64,000 nucleotides of DNA from a virus (taxonomy: Duplodnaviria; Caudoviricetes). The stretch covers positions 35,641 through 99,640 of the IMG/VR virus record IMGVR_UViG_3300029915_001170; one strand, given 5' to 3'. Under the pieces are notes generated by a model that worked only from the letters and a program-made list of their open reading frames with translations, was not told the origin of the DNA and made no database searches. Positions within the stretch are counted from its first letter, which is position 1, and the number at the start of each line of letters is the position of its first letter. The translations under genes and the position numbers were made by a program. This document shows, piece after piece, positions 7,305-64,000 of the stretch.

Positions 7305-7621
7305 TAGAGATTACTCCCTTCCTGTGAAGATTTGAAAGTGGTTACTTTCCTACTCTGAGCTTCGATGTTCTCTTCAATTTCTTCAACGACTTCTGGAAGT
7401 TGAAGAAGCATATTTGCAAGGTTAAGCTGTGTTTTTAGAATCGCTATGTGAGTCTTGACCTCTTCTGCTGACTTCTGTAGATTGAGTATCCTCACACCAT
7501 CAATAGCCTCTTGCTTGAGGCTATTGAGCAGTCCCAGCACCGGCTGGAACTCCTCCCTGCCCCACAATTCCTTGAGGAACTGTCGATACGGGATTAGGTC
7601 TCCCACTTTGTTGATTTCCAT
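7304..7621 (-). CDS. hypothetical protein (start MEINKV, overlaps portal 3' end)
   Basis: GGAG RBS before ATG 7621; typical small gene after portal. Confidence 0.5.
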   Translation of the reverse strand: MEINKVGDLIPYRQFLKELWGREEFQPVLGLLNSLKQEAIDGVRILNLQKSAEEVKTHIAILKTQLNLANMLLQLPEVVEEIEENIEAQSRKVTTFKSSQEGSNL

Positions 7622-9476
7622 TTCCTGCTCCTGCTCCCGCAGCTTGCGCTGCTTGTTGCATTGCGGCTTCGATAATGTTTGAGACATTCGGTAGAAGCGT
7701 CTCAGTATTATCTTTGTTAAAATCACGCAACAGAGTCTGACCCATCACTCGTGTCGCAAGAAGCATTTCAAGATAGTACTGCTTGAGATCTTGTGGAATT
7801 TGTGGCTGAGCGATTGCTTGAATAACCTGGGCCTGGGAGTTGTATAGCCGCTCCATGCGATCGCTCAACAGAATATCATTCTGGCGTTCAAGCTCCTTGT
7901 TCATAGAAGCTGAGGCTGGCCGAAGTCTCAGGCCAAGCACGCCAGCTTTATACTGATCGAGAGCTTTTTTGAGCCTCTCTGCCTGTGTACCATACTTTTC
8001 AAGTCTCGAGCCGATACCATAGTTTGAGTACATTGTCAGAAACTTTAATCCAAGTTTTACATGTGCTGAGCGCATATCACCAGTGCGCAAGTTGTTTCGG
8101 TTATTCTGCTGCATCATAACCATGGAAGTGCCGGCAGCACTGTAGATGCCACGCTTTTGATTTACAATTCCACCGCCAGTTCCACCAGTCGCCGGATCTA
8201 CTCCAGTACGTTCCTTTGCAATAGCCATGTGAAACTGATCTGGCCCATCGCTATATCCAAGGTCCGCTGCTGATTTAATATGCTCAAGCTCTCCTTCTTT
8301 CGCTGGAAGTACAACACCAGGAAAAATATCAAGCATCGAGGTAAGCTTGGATTCCGGATCTGCTCTCCAGACACCAAGCATAGCCATGTTACGATTATTT
8401 GTGCGCCAGTTGTTATTGTTAGAAAGCTCCGTCTGGATCATATGAATCATCTCAGCAAAGCCGGTGCCGAGATAGGATTCATCGTCATATGCAAGTTTCA
8501 TGTCCTGGTATGGAAGCATGTTCTTTGGATAGTTGTTAAAGGCTATCCAAAGAATCTTCCGGCTCTTCTTGTGATACTTTGCTTGGAAAGAGTAGGTCTT
8601 TCTTTGAACATCAAACTTAAAGAACAACGTGTAAATGTACCATCGCGCCGCTCCGGCATCTACGCCAGTGGATTCAATCCCAAACTGCTCGTTAACTTCA
8701 CGCTCCATTTCAGTTTCTTGAACTGCATCTGGAGATGCGAGAAGCTTGTCAATGTCTGACTGCTTGTAATATGGACTTTTAGACTTCAAATCCTGTAAAG
8801 CCCACATATCCAGAGAGTCGATATGGCCCATCAACTTCATGTTCTCAAGCTTTGGAACAGATGGATCAAAGATAAACCTGTTGAGCGGCAGCAGCTCTGG
8901 ATGAGGACCATCTCGCTTTACAAAAACCCTGGACTCAGATCTAACCGGATTACCATCCTCTAAACCACCATCAAGATATACTCGTTCGACCTCACTCTCG
9001 TATTCATATGGTGTATAGATAATCCCTGTGCCATATTTGATAGCGCTGTGAAAAGCACTTTGCTCAACGCGGTATAAGTCCAGCTCATCTGGATCATATG
9101 CCATGTCCATAAGGAAGCTTTGCACAATTTGCTTTAACTCTTCTCCATCTTTCGAGGGAAGATCACCACTCATCGTGGCTGCCCAGAGTGGATCGTACAT
9201 ATAAATGCCACCCATAATACGGGCTAGCAACTCGTCACAAGCAGTGCCGATTATGGGAATGACTAGATTTGCTGCGCCAGGCCACGGCCAATCAGCAGAT
9301 TGATTCTTTGGCCGAGCTTTATACAAGCGCACATACTCTGGCAGTTTCTCCGTGCGAAATGTCTGGAGCCGCCGGTCAAGATGCTCAACTTTTTCCTTGA
9401 TGAACTCGCACAGCTTTTTGTAGTTGTCCGGTCCAAACTCTTTCTCGGTAACTTCTGTAGGTGGCTGATATGGCAT
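7521..9476 (-). CDS. portal protein
   Basis: 651 aa; 'WPWPGAANL', 'AIKYGTGI', 'FIFDP' motifs; Gln/Gly-rich tail; follows terminase. Confidence 0.85.
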   Translation of the reverse strand: MPYQPPTEVTEKEFGPDNYKKLCEFIKEKVEHLDRRLQTFRTEKLPEYVRLYKARPKNQSADWPWPGAANLVIPIIGTACDELLARIMGGIYMYDPLWAATMSGDLPSKDGEELKQIVQSFLMDMAYDPDELDLYRVEQSAFHSAIKYGTGIIYTPYEYESEVERVYLDGGLEDGNPVRSESRVFVKRDGPHPELLPLNRFIFDPSVPKLENMKLMGHIDSLDMWALQDLKSKSPYYKQSDIDKLLASPDAVQETEMEREVNEQFGIESTGVDAGAARWYIYTLFFKFDVQRKTYSFQAKYHKKSRKILWIAFNNYPKNMLPYQDMKLAYDDESYLGTGFAEMIHMIQTELSNNNNWRTNNRNMAMLGVWRADPESKLTSMLDIFPGVVLPAKEGELEHIKSAADLGYSDGPDQFHMAIAKERTGVDPATGGTGGGIVNQKRGIYSAAGTSMVMMQQNNRNNLRTGDMRSAHVKLGLKFLTMYSNYGIGSRLEKYGTQAERLKKALDQYKAGVLGLRLRPASASMNKELERQNDILLSDRMERLYNSQAQVIQAIAQPQIPQDLKQYYLEMLLATRVMGQTLLRDFNKDNTETLLPNVSNIIEAAMQQAAQAAGAGAGNGNQQSGRPNPVSTVPQGIVGQGGVPAGAGTAQ

Positions 9477-9805
9477 TAGAGGGCACTCGAAATGATTGTA
9501 GCATTTGTTCCAGCAACCATATTAGCTAAAGCCACTGGATCGGCCACTGTCTTTGTAACGTTAGAGGTGATTGTTTCCGTGGCACTCGTGCTTCCAGGCA
9601 CCTGCGGCGCCGAGAGAGTGTACTGAAACTGTGGCATCGGCATTTGCGCACTGAAAGTCTTAAAGTCCGCTGTTAACAAGTTTACAAACTTATAGAAAAA
9701 CTGGTACACTACATTTCCATTTGGTGCAGGTAAAGCCTGCACCAAAGCCGATGCAGCTTGATTGGCAATGTAGAATAACATAAGTTGCTGCGGATCAATT
9801 GTCAT
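9476..9805 (-). CDS. hypothetical, possibly membrane/lysis protein
   Basis: hydrophobic N-terminal half; RBS. Confidence 0.45.
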   Translation of the reverse strand: MTIDPQQLMLFYIANQAASALVQALPAPNGNVVYQFFYKFVNLLTADFKTFSAQMPMPQFQYTLSAPQVPGSTSATETITSNVTKTVADPVALANMVAGTNATIISSAL

Positions 9806-45999: not shown

Positions 46000-46088
46000 T
46001 GGGGTGGCCGACGGAAGTCGAATCCGCGATGTTCTTTTGAACCCAGGGTCACAACCTGGCGCAACAAACCGACAGTTGCCTCAGCCAC
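46000..46088 (-). tRNA. tRNA-His(GUG) with long variable arm
   Basis: cloverleaf; ccagg-ttGTGac-cctgg; C73; CCA. Confidence 0.85.
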
Positions 46089-49197: not shown

Positions 49198-49281
49198 TGG
49201 AGCGGGCTGCGAGGTTCGAACTCGCATGTCTTACGACAGTGGTTTGGAAGACCACCGGGCAACCAATTACCCAAAGCCCGC
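49198..49281 (-). tRNA. tRNA-Gly(UCC) with long variable arm
   Basis: GCGGGCT/AGCCCGC, U73; gtggt-ctTCCaa-accac; tgtc-gtaa-gaca arm. Confidence 0.9.
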
Positions 49282-53556: not shown

Positions 53557-53636
53557 TGGTGCGTTCGGAAGGACTCGAACCTTCGATCATTTCCGATTTG
53601 TAAGAACGGTGTCTTGGCCACTCGACGCACGAACGC
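53557..53636 (-). tRNA. tRNA-Val(UAC)
   Basis: ctTACaa loop, 8-nt variable region, CCA. Confidence 0.85.
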
Positions 53637-56856: not shown

Positions 56857-57228
56857 TCAAAAAGCCCTCCCATAATGATGTCGTATTACCTGTTCCATTC
56901 TAGCCTTACCAACGGGATTCATACTATGCACTCGAACACCCTTGACCGGCCAAATATTTTTTTCTTCCATATAACAAATAATGTCATACCCGGACTTTAC
57001 ATGTGGACAACGATTAAAAAATGTTGTTTCAGCCGTTTTCATATCACCGATATGATAATTTGAATTTGTGCATTCTAGGCAAGCGCCGATATCGTGATCG
57101 AGACTTGCAAATATGACTTCGCCCGTTTCTAACGCCGCGATTGCTTCCTCATAGCTCTTGGCCCAATCCCATCCGATGCATCCGAATTTTGCTGGATCGC
57201 GTACATCATCTAACCAAAGATATATCAT
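56857..57228 (-). CDS. cyclic-phosphate-processing receiver-like domain protein
   Basis: 'LWLDDVR', 'SLDHDIG', 'SGYD', 'VHSMNPVG'. Confidence 0.75.
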   Translation of the reverse strand: MIYLWLDDVRDPAKFGCIGWDWAKSYEEAIAALETGEVIFASLDHDIGACLECTNSNYHIGDMKTAETTFFNRCPHVKSGYDIICYMEEKNIWPVKGVRVHSMNPVGKARMEQVIRHHYGRAF

Positions 57229-57991: not shown

Positions 57992-58531
57992 TCAAAATTT
58001 GTAATTCTTATAAATCTTCCAAAAATCAGCTCGATTTTCAGCAGGAATAACTTTTAATCCCAGTGCCGAAAAAACATCCTCTTCTGTTTCACTTGCTATA
58101 ATATGGCCATCTTTGAAAAGACCATATTGATTCAACTTATCGAAACCTTTATTCTTGCAATATGTTCGCATTGCAATATTGAACTGAGCATTGCCGGTAG
58201 CGTGAAGGCGCGCGGATCCAAAACTTTCCTTTGGCACGGTAATGAACTCAACTTGAATTTCCTTACCATAACACAATACCTTAAGGCTGAGTAAAGAACC
58301 GCCAGACCGATGTACTGCGCTAGGAAAAACGTCACCTACGACATCGAGTAATTTGCTAATAGCGCAATCAGTTATTACAAAATCTAAATCTCCGATTTCA
58401 GTTTTTCCGCGCCGCCAAGAACCACAGATTTCGAAATTAATATTTCGATCGGTTAACACATCTAGATAGGCTGAAATAATGCCATAGGCCTGAGATCGTG
58501 TAATTTTGTTTTCAACCGCAGTGCTAGACAT
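57992..58531 (-). CDS. minimal family X DNA polymerase
   Basis: 'CGSWRRGK.EIGDLDFV', 'HATG..FNIAMR', 'LNQYGLF', 'EEDVF.ALGL'. Confidence 0.85.
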   Translation of the reverse strand: MSSTAVENKITRSQAYGIISAYLDVLTDRNINFEICGSWRRGKTEIGDLDFVITDCAISKLLDVVGDVFPSAVHRSGGSLLSLKVLCYGKEIQVEFITVPKESFGSARLHATGNAQFNIAMRTYCKNKGFDKLNQYGLFKDGHIIASETEEDVFSALGLKVIPAENRADFWKIYKNYKF

Positions 58532-58634: not shown

Positions 58635-58715
58635 TGGCGGGACTGATGGGATTCGAACCCACGTTAAATAACTTAATCGACAATTAAGCGCCTTAAACCA
58701 CTTGGCTACAGTCCC
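58635..58715 (-). tRNA. tRNA-Asp(GUC)
   Basis: cttaa-ttGTCga-ttaag, G73, 9-nt variable region. Confidence 0.85.
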
Positions 58716-62003: not shown

Positions 62004-62503
62004 TTTCATTAATTTTTCTTTCACATTGTATTAATAGCATTTATTAAAAATATTGCCGTTCCTATTTCGGGCGAAATTTTAATATCTGTTAAATCAATTG
62101 TTTTAACGACCTTATCACCGGTATCAAATTCTTTTGAAATAATAATACCAATAGCCTTATTATTTTTACGAATAATTTGCTCGATATTATATTTCATTAA
62201 TCTTTCTTTCGATCCTTAAACTGTTTAAAGCAATCTTCAAAATTCTTATCCGAAGAATATCCTATTCCAAATAATGTAATCGTAAACAGCGTCTTAGCAT
62301 GTTGATATAGCGCTGCCATTGGATCAATTTTTTTTGCCTTTTGCAATGCAACTTCAAATTTCATTCTACCCCTTATTAGTTCTTTCGATTTGTAAAAATA
62401 TATTTAATTGCATTAACCAACGTTTTGATTCCACCAATAAACCCTGGTTGCGGGGCTTCGATTGGGTTTTGCTCATTAATTGGATTCTGTTTTTGTGCCA
62501 TAT

Positions 62504-62716
62504 TTACTCCGTTAATCTAAAAATTAATTGCTCACCGGTCGTAAGTTCTCGAATAATTTCACTTTCAAGAATAATTTCAATATGCGTGGGTTGAATAACA
62601 TACGCCAGCCGGCCTACTCAAAGGCTGCGACCGGTAATTCTAGCGACGTGTGTCTGACCGCCGTCGCCAAACGAATATTCGACATAAGAACCAACTTCGT
62701 ATTTATAGATTCCCAT
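62504..62716 (-). pseudogene. 'ESEIIR' family gene with in-frame TGA at codon 33
   Basis: MGIYKYEVGSYVEY...SL*VGRLAY...ESEIIRELT. Confidence 0.7.
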
Positions 62717-62727
62717 TGAATCCTTTC

Positions 62728-62958
62728 TTATTCGGCTAACCTTAAAATTAGAGCTTCATCTTTTGTTAACTCACGAATAATTTCGTCTTCAAAAACATAA
62801 TCTCGATTAGACATGTGGTAACCAGGCAAGCTAGGCAAGCCTTCATTCCACACTTCAGAATATACAATTAACGATGTGCGTATCGAATTAACCGCGACGC
62901 CCAGTTCGTCGTTCATTTGGTATTCAACATATGCGCCAATTTCATATTTGTTTTTCAT
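62728..62958 (-). CDS. 'ESEIIR' family microprotein
   Basis: 'KYEIGAYVEY...EDEIIRELT'. Confidence 0.65.
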   Translation of the reverse strand: MKNKYEIGAYVEYQMNDELGVAVNSIRTSLIVYSEVWNEGLPSLPGYHMSNRDYVFEDEIIRELTKDEALILRLAE

Positions 62959-63179
62959 TCGGCTAGTCGATTAATTAAAACTTCAACCGGAGTTAACTCA
63001 CGAATTATTTCGCTTTCTAAAAGTATGTTTCCCATTTCGCTAGGCGTGATATAATATGCCGGCGACTCAGCCCAATCAGTGAGTCCCCAAATTGATACTA
63101 TCCGAGATGCCGGAGCATCGACATTTTTGTAATCGAATAAATATTCAATATATGCGCCGATTTCATATTTCCATTTCAT
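62955..63179 (-). CDS. 'ESEIIR' family microprotein
   Basis: 'KYEIGAYIEY...ESEIIRELT'. Confidence 0.65.
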   Translation of the reverse strand: MKWKYEIGAYIEYLFDYKNVDAPASRIVSIWGLTDWAESPAYYITPSEMGNILLESEIIRELTPVEVLINRLAE

Positions 63180-63203
63180 AGCGCCCCTTCGTTTGAAAAA
63201 AAA

Positions 63204-63280
63204 TGGTAGGCGAGGTCGGGTTCGAACCGACGACCTTTCGATTATAAATCGAAGGCTCTATCCAACTGAGCTACTCGCCT
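63204..63280 (-). tRNA. tRNA-Ile(UAU)
   Basis: ttcga-ttTATaa-tcgaa, A73, CCA. Confidence 0.9.
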
Positions 63281-63284
63281 ACAT

Positions 63285-63830
63285 TTAAATGATGGTGTGA
63301 TTTAATTTTTGATTAGGAATATGGTATTCACTCCTAAGAAGTCGTATAATACTTTCTGAATCATCGAATTTAATCCATTCACCATTTTCGATATTTACAT
63401 TAAATTTATTTAATAATGCATTTTCAACTTTTCGTCTATCTAAAACAAATTCATAATGCTTAACTTTATATTGTTTAAATGGATCGCAAGTTTGATATGC
63501 GAGAAGTCTCTTATTTAAATCCATCGTCATACCAATTTTTAAATGATCTGGCCATATTGGATTCCAAATTAAATAAACAATGCCTTCTTTACAAGTTTTA
63601 ACATCGCCACCGCGCGAAATTAACAGTTTTAAAAATTCTAGCCCTCCCATTTTTCTTGCATAATTTTTACTGAATTTATTATTATGCTTGGGCCGACAGT
63701 CTCCATAAATCTCGATATATGCCTGCATAATATTTTCATTAAGAGAAAATAAACCTTTTTCAGGAATAATACGGTTATTTATCATTATATCAAATGTTTG
63801 CTTAATTCTTGATAATTTATCTTGATTCAT
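63285..63830 (-). CDS. GIY-YIG superfamily (T5orf172/MUG113-like) nuclease
   Basis: 'GIVYLI', 'LKIGMT.DL.KRL..YQT', 'E..L', 'GEW'. Confidence 0.75.
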   Translation of the reverse strand: MNQDKLSRIKQTFDIMINNRIIPEKGLFSLNENIMQAYIEIYGDCRPKHNNKFSKNYARKMGGLEFLKLLISRGGDVKTCKEGIVYLIWNPIWPDHLKIGMTMDLNKRLLAYQTCDPFKQYKVKHYEFVLDRRKVENALLNKFNVNIENGEWIKFDDSESIIRLLRSEYHIPNQKLNHTII

Positions 63831-63857
63831 TTTCCTATTCTTTAATTATATAACTTT

Positions 63858-63994
63858 TGGTGGGTCCAGCGGGACTTGAACCCGCCACCAACCGGTTACC
63901 CGTGTCCATTCGGTAAACGCCCTCGCCAGATTCGAACTGGCATCATTCCTTTAAGGACCAAAGCCGGTTGCTCTACCAGATGAGCTATAGACCC
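63858..63994 (-). tRNA. tRNA-Lys(UUU) interrupted by 61-nt anticodon-loop insert
   Basis: removing 63899-63959 gives a 76-nt cloverleaf: GGGTC acceptor, accgg-ctTTTaa-ccggt, A73, CCA. Confidence 0.8.
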
Positions 63995-64000
63995 ATAAAA

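What the first reader, a model, noticed from the sequence alone, without database searches (positions are those of the whole stretch)
63285..63994. tRNA-Lys with a 61-nt anticodon insert resembling a circularly permuted tRNA elbow, beside a GIY-YIG nuclease
Seen: excising 63899-63959 (between positions 35 and 36) restores a 76-nt tRNA-Lys(UUU). The insert reads ggtcc-ttaaa-gga hairpin, a perfect T arm GCCAG-TTCGAAT-CTGGC, a short GAGGGCGTTT segment, then a D-arm-like CCG-AATGGACA-CGG. Established: T, acceptor, D order is that of bacterial YrlA Y RNAs; 61 nt is far too short for a group I intron; tRNA-Lys(UUU) is the target of PrrC and PARIS; T4 SegB is a GIY-YIG homing nuclease in a tRNA cluster. 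Inference: a new mini-intron class or a double-elbow tRNA decoy that hides the anticodon, possibly mobilised by, or immune to, the adjacent nuclease.
Basis: partly seen in the sequence, partly recalled or inferred. Interest (0 to 1): 0.85.

Follow-up and report, generated by a model that had tools for sequence, protein, structure and literature searches.

The report
Phage lysine tRNA split by tRNA-like insert
A peat bacteriophage carries its only lysine tRNA gene interrupted in the anticodon by a real, inherited 61-base insert shaped like the top half of a tRNA, a rare and unexplained kind of phage tRNA intron that suggests a testable cut-and-reseal route using ordinary tRNA-processing enzymes.

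Summary
On the minus strand at 63858-63994 lies a tRNA-Lys(UUU) gene. Removing 63899-63959 (61 nt, between nt 35 and 36) gives a clean 76-nt cloverleaf with encoded CCA. The gene sits 6 nt from the contig end, but it is not an assembly artefact. An independent 12.3-kb contig from a wood-decay metagenome carries it unchanged. A diverged copy with a 57-nt insert occurs in a peat RNA library.

The insert has a canonical T arm (chance about 1 in 10,000). A 6-bp acceptor-like helix stacks on it, and its first base is the 5' junction. A hairpin pairs with U36-A38 across the 3' junction. The "D-arm-like" hairpin is lost in the variant.

It is not a group I intron, not an archaeal BHB intron, not YrlA, and matches no Rfam ribozyme. 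The closest known things are the unexplained tRNA-containing introns of Lak megaphages, which I found to be built as a mirror image.

The phage encodes T4-type Pnkp, Rnl1-like and Rnl2-like ligases. The best guess (0.35) is protein-dependent splicing: RNase P cuts the 5' junction, an unknown nuclease cuts the 3' one, and phage ligase reseals. Decoy and dead-gene readings remain open. No spliced product was seen.

The parts
63960..63994 (-). tRNA-Lys(UUU) exon 1: acceptor 5' strand, D arm, anticodon-stem 5' strand, C32 U33 U34 U35
   Evidence: ARAGORN -i; Rfam tRNA 52.7 bits
63899..63959 (-). 61-nt intervening sequence between nt 35 and 36 (intron nt k = window 63960-k)
   Evidence: ARAGORN -i. 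Present unchanged in independent DNA contigs, and present as a 57-nt variant in an RNA library. Single copy in the genome.
63917..63959 (-). Acceptor/T-arm minihelix mimic. Intron nt 2-7 pair with nt 36-41 (6 bp; G1 faces G42 unpaired). They stack on the T arm at nt 19-35 (GCCAG/UUCGAAU/CUGGC). U43 sits in the discriminator place, and nt 8-18 form an unpaired linker.
   Evidence: It appears in the unconstrained MFE fold of the precursor. The T arm arose in 211 of 2,000,000 shuffles, and >=6 of 7 pairs in this exact register arose in 6,385 of 500,000. Both listed substitutions of the variant (A9>U, A17>C) fall in the linker.
63896..63916 (-). Hairpin H3. Intron U44 U45 A46 C47 C48 pair with G60 G61 plus exon U36 A37 A38. 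The loop holds UGGAC. The 3' junction lies inside the 3' strand of this helix.
   Evidence: It emerges as the best completion when the minihelix is enforced, and the reverse also holds. It is kept in the variant as UUACU/GGUAA with a 7-nt loop (aligned by eye).
63858..63898 (-). tRNA-Lys exon 2: U36 A37 A38, anticodon-stem 3' strand, variable loop, T arm, acceptor 3' strand, A73 and encoded CCA
63285..63830 (-). 181-aa T5orf172/MUG113-domain protein, starting 28 nt downstream of the tRNA on the same strand
   Evidence: Pfam; phrog_5032 at 5.4e-31. No terminator-like site lies between it and the tRNA. An RNA-library contig spans the tRNA-ORF junction (record 8).

Best explanation
This is a genuine, inherited intervening sequence in the anticodon loop of the phage's only tRNA-Lys(UUU) gene. 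Most likely it is removed from the transcript by proteins, not by itself. The first 43 nt fold as the top half of a tRNA: a 6-bp acceptor-like helix stacked on a canonical T arm. The first nucleotide of that mimic is the first nucleotide of the insert. Host RNase P, which cuts at the 5' end of any acceptor/T-arm stack, would therefore cut exactly at the 5' junction (U35 | G1), leaving a 3'-OH on exon 1. The last 18 nt form a hairpin that pairs with U36-A38 and holds the 3' junction. A second nuclease, not identified, must cut there. The two exons stay held together by the acceptor and anticodon stems. The phage's own T4-type end-healing and sealing enzymes (Pnkp, Rnl1-like ligase) would then join them in the anticodon loop. 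Shown: the gene, the insert, its conservation, the T arm, the possible helices, and the phage repair genes. Inferred: both cuts, the ligation, and that splicing happens at all.
For: (1) The exons are intact. Excision gives a 76-nt cloverleaf with A73 and CCA, and this is the only tRNA-Lys among 25 tRNAs.
(2) The insert is inherited. A diverged copy in an RNA library keeps both exons and a 57-nt insert: 9 differences over 63913-63995, then 5 more and a 4-nt gap in the next 30 letters. The sequence just upstream of the tRNA does not align at all.
(3) The T arm is non-random, arising in 211 of 2,000,000 shuffles. The acceptor-like pairing in the one register that puts intron nt 1 at the RNase P position arose in 6,385 of 500,000 shuffles. 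N-1 is U and N+1 is G, which are the preferred RNase P context (recalled).
(4) The model with tRNA stems, minihelix and H3 lies 2.4 kcal/mol above the best constrained fold (-48.9 against -51.3). Each of the two elements brings up the other when enforced.
(5) The variant's two listed substitutions lie in the unpaired linker, and H3 is kept with C>U giving a U.G pair.
(6) The phage encodes an Rnl1-like ligase (PF09511, 61.5-63 bits), an Rnl2-like ligase (PF09414, 55.8 bits) and a kinase-phosphatase Pnkp (HAD_PNKP 100.4 bits, AAA_33 58.7 bits). It also encodes a cyclic-phosphate-processing receiver domain protein.
(7) There is a mirror-image precedent. In Lak-A1 tRNA-Thr(UGU), a nested 82-nt tRNA ends, discriminator included, exactly at the 3' junction, and a hairpin spacer lies at the other side. 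Lak-A1 also has ligase-family genes: 4 PF09414 matches over the cut-off.
Against: No spliced product was seen. The only RNA-library contigs over the junctions are unspliced (records 8 and 9), and they may be precursor or carried-over DNA. No enzyme is proposed for the 3' cut, which lies inside a helix strand where neither RNase P nor RNase Z cuts. Nearest-neighbour folding prefers a rod in which intron nt 1-5 pair with nt 53-58 (p about 0.97) and the T arm has only p = 0.3. The acceptor-like helix has a G.G mismatch at its end and two G.U pairs. There is only one diverged copy, only part of it was visible, and no compensatory change could be scored. No other homologue turned up in IMG/VR, JGI metagenomes or GTDB genomes. 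Pnkp and Rnl1 are explained well enough by repair of nuclease-broken tRNA.
Confidence: 0.35

Rival explanations
1. Dead gene. A tRNA-derived fragment was inserted into the anticodon loop, for example during repair of a nuclease cut in the tRNA cluster. The interrupted gene is carried along without function.
For: No splicing route for such an insert is known in bacteria. The insert contains a plain tRNA piece: a 5-nt spacer, a T arm and 7 nt in the acceptor place. Nuclease-like genes (T5orf172, HNH) sit in the cluster. Homologues are almost absent from the collections searched. Exons and insert differ from the variant at similar rates, as neutral drift of a whole dead gene would give.
Against: Both exons are still perfect, with no broken pair in four stems (pair list). 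It is the only tRNA-Lys of an A+T-rich phage. The insert is not a copy of any other tRNA in the genome. The gene and insert align between two lineages whose upstream flank does not align. The insert keeps 54% G+C in a 37% G+C arm.
Confidence: 0.25
2. Unspliced tRNA-shaped RNA. The transcript works as it is, with the anticodon loop replaced by a three-way junction. It could act as a decoy or inhibitor for an anticodon nuclease or another tRNA-Lys-binding defence protein, or as a handle for tRNA enzymes.
For: tRNA-Lys(UUU) is a target of PARIS AriB (PMC12409363, passages) and of PrrC (recalled). Here U36-A38 are paired away in H3, and nt 39-41 read CCG where the E. coli AriB site has UCA. Only unspliced forms were seen in RNA libraries. 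Earlier notes of this scan describe phage tRNA-shaped RNAs with structured domains in place of the anticodon loop (unchecked leads).
Against: Excision restores a flawless CUUUUAA loop at a single possible position, and the boundaries cannot be slid. A non-decoding RNA has no reason to keep that. The phage would then have no tRNA-Lys among at least 25 tRNAs.
Confidence: 0.2
3. A small self-cleaving or self-splicing RNA of an undescribed kind removes itself.
For: The order 5' strand, hairpin, 3' strand, second hairpin resembles the layout of HDV-like ribozymes, which cut at their own first nucleotide. Minimal HDV-like ribozymes are known next to phage tRNAs (PMC10879173, listing and abstract start only).
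Against: No Rfam ribozyme or intron family matches, even at E<=10 on 151 nt. I could find no P2-type pairing by eye. The hairpin is a textbook T arm rather than a 3-bp P3. The fold z-scores are weak: -1.90 for the precursor and -0.75 for the insert alone.
Confidence: 0.07
4. An archaeal-type intron cut at a bulge-helix-bulge motif by a splicing endonuclease.
For: Its length and anticodon-loop position are typical of archaeal tRNA introns. The constrained fold shows a 3-nt UAA bulge next to a 4-bp helix.
Against: Writing out the motif for junctions 35/36 gives 1 of 4 central pairs. For 37/38 it gives 3 of 4 central pairs (two of them G.U) and no second bulge (by hand). No tRNA_int_endo domain is found in the phage. 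ClpX, ClpS, FtsK-like and T4-type repair genes point to a bacterial host.
Confidence: 0.02
5. Assembly artefact at a contig end.
For: The gene lies 6 nt from the end of a contig about twice as long as its relatives' complete genomes.
Against: An independently assembled 12.3-kb contig from another habitat spans it without a gap and runs on into a further tRNA. A second run's contig agrees, and a diverged copy exists.
Confidence: 0.01

Closest known systems
'Enigmatic' introns of Lak megaphage tRNAs (Devoto et al. 2019, PMC6784885; passages read)
   Same: A short non-group-I insert in the anticodon loop of a phage tRNA that itself contains a tRNA-like module with a canonical T loop. The module is flush with one splice junction, and a small hairpin lies towards the other. 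In Lak-A1 tRNA-Thr(UGU) the nested tRNA's discriminator is the last intron base. The mechanism is unknown in both cases. Both phages carry ATP-dependent RNA-ligase-family genes.
   Different: Mirror order: here the mimic is flush with the 5' junction, which is the RNase P side, and not the 3' junction. Here it is only an acceptor/T-arm minihelix of 43 nt, whereas Lak has a full 82-nt cloverleaf. The insert is 61 nt against 93-114 nt. No sequence is shared beyond the 9-nt T loop. The phage is about 100 kb, from peat, with a different host. I could not see Devoto's supplementary intron table.
Group I introns in bacterial and phage tRNA anticodon loops (review PMC3984707, passages)
   Same: The place of insertion, and a nuclease-like gene beside it, as in 'collaborative homing' of an ORF-less intron with a free-standing endonuclease.
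   Different: 61 nt cannot hold the P3-P9 core (recalled size range). No Rfam intron match.
T4 PrrC / Pnkp / Rnl1 tRNA-Lys break-and-repair (recalled; no paper read here)
   Same: The same tRNA species and the same loop. The same enzyme set is encoded by the phage.
   Different: In T4 the break is made by a host defence nuclease in a continuous tRNA. Here a 61-nt piece would have to be removed.
Archaeal/eukaryal protein-spliced tRNA introns (BHB, EndA, ligase)
   Same: Short, anticodon-loop, and protein-dependent by inference. Healing and sealing chemistry matches that of fungal Trl1 (recalled).
   Different: No BHB in register, no endonuclease gene, and a bacterial-type phage.
YrlA-type Y RNAs with a tRNA-like module (PMC4201824, listing and abstract start only)
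   Same: Use of a T-arm-bearing tRNA mimic inside a larger RNA.
   Different: Rfam YrlA scores 11.7 bits against a cut-off of 69, and that match does not cover the insert's T arm. The D-arm-like hairpin is not conserved.

Membership tests
tRNA-Lys(UUU) gene | Cloverleaf with a CUUUUAA loop, A73 and a Lys-type body once the insert is removed | tested here: met
   ARAGORN gives 76 nt, anticodon ttt. Rfam tRNA matches end to end at 52.7 bits. All 21 enforced stem pairs are standard pairs.
Group I intron | Conserved P3-P9 catalytic core, detectable by the Rfam intron models | tested here: not met
   No intron family at E<=1 on 4 kb or at E<=10 on 151 nt. The insert is only 61 nt.
Archaeal BHB intron | Two 3-nt bulges separated by a 4-bp helix, with the cuts in register with the exon junctions | tested here: not met
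   Written out by hand on the structure: 1 of 4 central pairs for junctions 35/36. For 37/38, 3 of 4 (two G.U) and no second bulge.
Archaeal BHB intron | A splicing endonuclease available in the virus or host | tested here: not met
   PF01974 is absent from the phage while the control rings in 4 archaea. A bacterial host is inferred from ClpX and ClpS. The host itself is not identified.
Small self-cleaving ribozymes in Rfam (HDV-like, hammerhead, twister, pistol, hatchet, hairpin) | A match to a family covariance model | tested here: not met
   None listed at E<=10. An undescribed ribozyme cannot be excluded this way.
YrlA / bacterial Y RNA | A match to RF02553 at or above 69 bits | tested here: not met
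   11.7 bits, E 8.7, over 63850-63916 and cut off at the 3' end.
Lak-type tRNA-containing phage tRNA intron | An insert in the anticodon loop of a phage tRNA | tested here: met
Lak-type tRNA-containing phage tRNA intron | A nested complete tRNA cloverleaf | tested here: not met
   Only an acceptor-like helix and a T arm are present here, with no D or anticodon arm. ARAGORN calls a nested tRNA in Lak-A1 tRNA-Thr.
Lak-type tRNA-containing phage tRNA intron | The nested module ends at the 3' junction | tested here: not met
   Here the module starts at the 5' junction (register). In Lak-A1 tRNA-Thr(UGU) it ends at the 3' junction.
Lak-type tRNA-containing phage tRNA intron | Sequence similarity of the inserts | tested here: not met
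   blastn-short finds only the 9-nt GTTCGAATC.
RNase P substrate (minihelix type) | A 12-bp acceptor/T-stem stack with a T loop; cleavage 5' of the first stem nucleotide | tested here: inconclusive
   5 + 6 bp with a terminal G.G mismatch, a canonical T loop, and U at -1. Cleavage itself is not testable with these tools.
T5orf172 / GIY-YIG-clan nuclease-like protein | Pfam domain match over the curated cut-off | tested here: met
   MUG113 38.4 bits (cut-off 22.3) and T5orf172 34.4 bits (cut-off 20). GIVY...KIG...R...E motifs were read by eye. Nuclease activity is not testable here.
T4-type tRNA repair set | Rnl1-family ligase plus a bifunctional kinase/phosphatase | tested here: met
   PF09511 at 61.5 bits; HAD_PNKP at 100.4 bits with AAA_33 at 58.7 bits. 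Activities not tested.

The most novel reading that the evidence does not exclude
Bacterial viruses have a protein-only tRNA splicing route of their own. The intron carries a built-in mimic of the acceptor/T-arm half of a tRNA, so the host's tRNA end-processing enzymes cut it out: RNase P at the 5' junction here, and the 3'-end enzyme at the 3' junction in Lak phages. The phage's T4-type Pnkp and Rnl1, until now seen only as repair enzymes, reseal the anticodon loop. The interruption could at the same time shield the tRNA-Lys anticodon loop from anticodon nucleases and shield the gene from the tRNA-cluster homing nuclease beside it.
Probability: 0.25. Interest if true: 0.9.

Novelty: new variant of a known kind. 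Interest (0 to 1): 0.62.

Why it matters
Outside self-splicing group I introns, bacteria and their viruses are not supposed to have tRNA introns. The few short introns reported in Lak megaphages have stayed unexplained since 2019. This case is small (61 nt) and lies in a different phage lineage and habitat. It has a legible build: a tRNA top-half mimic whose first base is the splice junction. It also sits in a genome that encodes the enzymes needed to reseal an anticodon loop. That turns the open question of how these inserts are removed, if they are removed at all, into a few bench experiments with a 137-nt transcript, RNase P and three recombinant phage proteins. It concerns tRNA-Lys(UUU), the tRNA at the centre of the PrrC and PARIS conflicts. 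The answer therefore bears on how phages protect or disguise their tRNAs.

Tried and rejected
**Searches for homologues of the insert**
- Exact 24-mer of the insert core in IMG/VR: 0 hits.
- Exact 25-mer of exon 2 in IMG/VR: 0 hits.
- Degenerate junction patterns fitting both the window and the variant: 0 in IMG/VR and 0 in JGI metagenomes.
- Generic pattern for a tRNA-Lys-like body with a 35-65-nt insert: 13 stretches. 6 are a truncated tRNA followed by a second tRNA. 7 are single bodies with unrelated 36-46-nt inserts. 0 of 13 inserts hold a T arm.
- Two exon-2 strings in GTDB genomes: 0 hits each, so there is no host clue.
- blastn against GenBank phages matched only the neighbouring tRNA-Ile.

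**Protein-anchored searches for relatives of the tRNA arm**
- The 181-aa protein found none.
- A 310-aa ORF found none.
- TerL relatives number 96, with 80 kept. All are contigs of 49.9 kb or less. Of 5 records searched, 1 has a tRNA. None helps with this gene.

**Sequencing runs**
- No spliced joint appeared in the 4 of 22 listed runs that I laid. All four are contig sets, which cannot show absence.
- The one 'letters between' entry, in X9, is by my reading a different tRNA (anticodon UGU) that shares the D and T arms. It is not a spliced form.

**Readings considered and dropped**
- HDV-like and hammerhead layouts were checked by eye and dropped.
- An alternative tRNA built from exon 1 plus the insert, or from the insert plus exon 2, was checked by eye and dropped.
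- RNase III on the rod form gives a 3-nt overhang instead of 2, and the rod near the junctions is weakened in the variant, so I kept it only as a thought.
- The 135-nt 'tRNA-Phe(aaa)' annotated in T5-like phage JLBYU43 looks like a poor prediction and was not pursued.

**Literature**
- Three searches found no description of an RNase P-defined or ligase-sealed phage tRNA intron.
- A virus-wide tRNA survey (PMC6409571) has 0 occurrences of 'intron'.
Full report
**What is there.** The window is the last 64 kb of a 99,640-bp IMG/VR virus contig. On the minus strand, 6 nt from the contig end, lies a tRNA gene that plain ARAGORN misses; it finds 20 genes in the window. With introns allowed, ARAGORN finds 25 genes in the record, and 1 of the 25 is split. 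That one is tRNA-Lys(ttt), 76 nt, with a 61-nt intron between nt 35 and 36.

Rfam's tRNA model matches 63861-63994 from first to last position at 52.7 bits, with one 64-nt insertion in the anticodon loop. Among 20 tRNA matches in 38000-64000, it is the only one longer than 81 nt. The boundaries cannot be slid: exon 1 ends in U, the insert starts with G and ends with G, and exon 2 starts with U. A CUUUUAA loop therefore fixes the insert at 63899-63959. CCA is encoded at 63858-63860.

**It is not an artefact.** Of 22 public runs listed for 62500-64000, 14 hold half or more of the sampled words. I laid 4 of them.
- A 12,334-nt contig of a wood-decay DNA run, from a different habitat and study, covers 63100-63997 with no gap. 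It has 3 substitutions (63202, 63280, 63678), none in the tRNA. It runs on past the window's end into what reads as the 3' end of another tRNA.
- A 212-nt contig of a peat DNA run covers 63783-63994 without a difference.
- The insert is single-copy and is not a copy of another tRNA of the genome.

**A diverged copy exists.** In a peat RNA library, a 151-nt contig aligns to 63913-63995 with 9 differences. Two of them are listed: 63943 T>G and 63951 T>A, which are intron A17>C and A9>U.

The contig's 30 printed letters before 63913 align by eye to 63879-63908. They carry five substitutions: exon G41>C, G48>C and C50>U, and intron C58>U and G59>C. This alignment implies that four nucleotides (intron 48-51) are missing, so this copy has a 57-nt insert at the same place. 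The letters upstream of the tRNA do not align at all.

The gene with its insert is therefore inherited across lineages that differ by roughly 10-15% in it. The caveat is that phage mosaic boundaries often fall at tRNA gene ends, so the unalignable flank may be a swapped module and not evidence of faster drift. I could not see the other 7 differences. In particular I could not see whether nt 29 compensates for G41>C.

**Anatomy of the insert.** Intron nt 19-35 are a textbook T arm, GCCAG/UUCGAAU/CUGGC. Such an arm arose in 211 of 2,000,000 shuffles of the insert.

The 7 nt after the T arm (nt 36-42) face nt 1-7. They form 6 pairs (G2-C41 to U7.G36), with G1 opposite G42. Six or more of 7 pairs in this one register arose in 6,385 of 500,000 shuffles. 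Together this is an acceptor/T-arm minihelix with an 11-nt unpaired linker (nt 8-18) and U43 in the discriminator place. Its first nucleotide is the first nucleotide of the insert. The unconstrained MFE fold of the precursor contains this minihelix.

Nt 44-48 (UUACC) pair with G60 G61 and the exon's U36 A37 A38. This hairpin (H3) stacks on the anticodon stem and contains the 3' junction.

With the four tRNA stems enforced, ViennaRNA prefers a rod at -51.3 kcal/mol. In the rod, nt 1-5 pair with nt 53-58 at p about 0.97 and the T arm has only p = 0.3. The three-way-junction model is 2.4 kcal/mol worse at -48.9. Enforcing either the minihelix or H3 brings up the other. T-loop tertiary contacts are not scored by such folding.

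The variant fits the junction model somewhat better.
- Its two listed substitutions lie in the linker.
- H3 is kept, with C48 replaced by a U that pairs with G60 and a loop of 7 nt instead of 11.
- The rod loses U35.G59, and G1-C58 becomes G.U.
- The UGGAC in the H3 loop is kept.

No compensatory change could be scored, so none of the helices is proven.

**What it is not.**
- No Rfam family other than tRNA reaches significance on 4 kb at E<=1 or on 151 nt at E<=10. That covers group I and II introns and all self-cleaving ribozymes.
- YrlA scores 11.7 bits against a cut-off of 69, and the match does not cover the insert's T arm.
- A bulge-helix-bulge motif written out for junctions 35/36 gives 1 of 4 central pairs. 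For a canonical 37/38 intron, which would make anticodon UUG, it gives 3 of 4 with no second bulge (by hand).
- The phage has no splicing-endonuclease domain.
- Its ClpX, ClpS, FtsK-like, PP2C and T4-type repair genes point to a bacterial host.

**Context.** TerL relatives are abundant in peat viromes: 96 relatives, 80 kept, all on contigs of 49.9 kb or less. Two of the five longest I searched have terminal repeats at about 49-50 kb, and 1 of the 5 has a tRNA. This contig is a 50-kb core at about 47% G+C, flanked by arms at about 37% G+C that hold all 25 tRNAs and many small ORFs.

The arms also encode an Rnl1-like ligase (C1:4672-5772), an Rnl2-like ligase (7377-8477), a kinase-phosphatase Pnkp (8542-9510) and a cyclic-phosphate-processing receiver domain protein (window 56857-57228). 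There is no RtcB. This is the T4 set that repairs tRNA-Lys broken in the anticodon loop (recalled).

**The neighbour.** The 181-aa ORF starts 28 nt downstream on the same strand and has a T5orf172/MUG113 domain. No terminator-like site separates it from the tRNA. An RNA-library contig spans the tRNA-ORF junction and the unspliced 3' junction (record 8).

Its homologues are in 448 GenBank phage records, mostly T5-like. In the 3 loci I opened, the homologue abuts or overlaps a tRNA gene: tRNA-Lys(ttt) in JLBYU43, and tRNA-Asn in T5 and S131. It is thus an ordinary resident of phage tRNA clusters.

The idea that the insert interrupts its target, as in 'collaborative homing' (PMC3984707, passages), is attractive but untested.

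**Closest known.** Notes of this scan (leads only) pointed to Devoto et al. 2019. That paper reports 'enigmatic', highly conserved introns in Lak megaphage tRNAs, one of which 'itself may encode a tRNA' (PMC6784885, passages; supplements closed).

I fetched Lak-A1 and looked myself.
- In its tRNA-Thr(UGU), exon 1 ends CUUGU.
- A 31-nt A+U-rich spacer with a small hairpin follows.
- Then comes an 82-nt nested tRNA. Its acceptor 3' strand plus one discriminator base is followed directly by AA and the anticodon-stem 3' strand.
- A second Lak-A1 insert ends in the same way.

The build is therefore the mirror image of the one here. In Lak the tRNA module is flush with the 3' junction. Here a reduced module is flush with the 5' junction, and in both a hairpin lies on the other side. 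Only the 9-nt T loop is shared in sequence. Lak-A1 also has ligase-family genes: 4 PF09414 matches over the cut-off, and no Rnl1 or RtcB.

**Most likely mechanism (0.35).** I think the insert is spliced by proteins.
- RNase P recognises acceptor/T-arm stacks and cuts at their 5' end. It would cut U35|G1 and leave a 3'-OH.
- A second nuclease must cut G61|U36 within H3. I cannot name it. RNase Z would cut after U43, which is exactly where H3 begins, and that would leave an 18-nt leader on exon 2.
- The exons stay paired through two stems. Pnkp would heal the ends if needed, and the Rnl1-like ligase would seal the loop.

Every enzymatic step is inference.

**Rivals.** The rivals are a dead gene (0.25), an unspliced tRNA-shaped decoy or regulator (0.20), an undescribed self-cleaving RNA (0.07), an archaeal-type intron (0.02) and an artefact (0.01). 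No spliced product was seen, and contigs cannot show its absence.

**Verdict.** This is a new variant of a rare, published but unexplained kind: tRNA-like introns in phage tRNAs. It has a clear, testable cutting rule, and it lies in the tRNA most contested between phages and bacterial defences.

Noticed in passing
G000:C1 4672-9510 (outside the window, minus strand; loci L082-L085): A T4-type RNA repair cluster: an Rnl1-like ligase (PF09511), an Rnl2-like ligase with a PHA02142 OB domain (PF09414), and a Pnkp with kinase and HAD phosphatase domains. An HNH endonuclease ORF lies next to them.
   Followed up: partly
window 56857-57228 (-) and 57992-58531 (-): A 123-aa cyclic-phosphate-processing receiver domain protein (PF20274, 72.9 bits) and a 179-aa protein with DNA polymerase beta palm and thumb domains. 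Both sit among tRNA-Glu, tRNA-Pro and tRNA-Gln genes. They may belong to RNA end processing.
   Followed up: no
window 46000-46088, 49198-49281, 53557-53636, 58635-58715; G000:C1 23146-23237: Five tRNAs that should have short variable loops are over-long (His 89 nt, Gly 84, Val 80, Asp 81, Trp 92). In ARAGORN's drawings they have 8-24 extra nucleotides in the variable region.
   Followed up: no
whole contig G000:C1: The genome is built as a core of about 50 kb (about 47% G+C) homologous to 49-50-kb peat phages with terminal repeats. Arms at about 37% G+C add some 45 kb and carry 25 tRNAs, ClpX, ClpS, PP2C, an HD-domain protein, R2K ATP-grasp, amidoligase, a GMP-reductase-like protein and nuclease genes. 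The contig starts inside an ORF and ends 6 nt before a tRNA, so it is probably not complete despite the 100% estimate.
   Followed up: partly
beyond window 64000 (run X14 loose end): The independent contig continues upstream of tRNA-Lys into sequence that reads as the CCA end, acceptor strand and T arm of a further tRNA. The tRNA cluster therefore goes on past the contig end.
   Followed up: no
window 63857-63891 (run X14 records 4 and 5): Short, three-fold deeper contigs match the T arm, variable loop and acceptor 3' strand of exon 2 with at most 1 difference. They then continue into an uninterrupted CUUUUAA loop with a different anticodon stem. This is possibly the host's own tRNA-Lys. Exact searches of GTDB genomes found nothing.
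   Followed up: partly
window 62728-62958 (-) and 62955-63179 (-): Two adjacent, overlapping small ORFs (76 and 74 aa) are visibly paralogous at both ends (MK.KYEIGAY.EY ... EIIRELT ... RLAE). They have no Pfam or PHROG match.
   Followed up: no
L098 2076-2357 (IMG/VR contig of 101,564 bp), L087 2140-2249, L096 5424-5540, L088/L094, L097: Other environmental tRNA genes carry unrelated 36-46-nt inserts in or beside the anticodon loop. One case is two tandem copies next to an intact tRNA-Lys on a 24% G+C viral contig. Another sits in a 14-tRNA cluster on a brine contig. Some may be ordinary archaeal introns.
   Followed up: partly
L104 4717-4851 (Escherichia phage JLBYU43): A 135-nt feature is annotated tRNA-Phe(aaa) beside an HNH endonuclease gene in a T5-like tRNA cluster. 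ARAGORN needs a 41-nt intron and a long variable arm to call it. It is probably not a true tRNA.
   Followed up: partly
L110 3983-4147 (Lak-A1): For this Lak-A1 insert, ARAGORN's junction gives Ser(GCU). Placing the 3' junction after the nested tRNA's discriminator gives an Asn(GUU) loop, with the insert at 35/36, the same position as here.
   Followed up: partly
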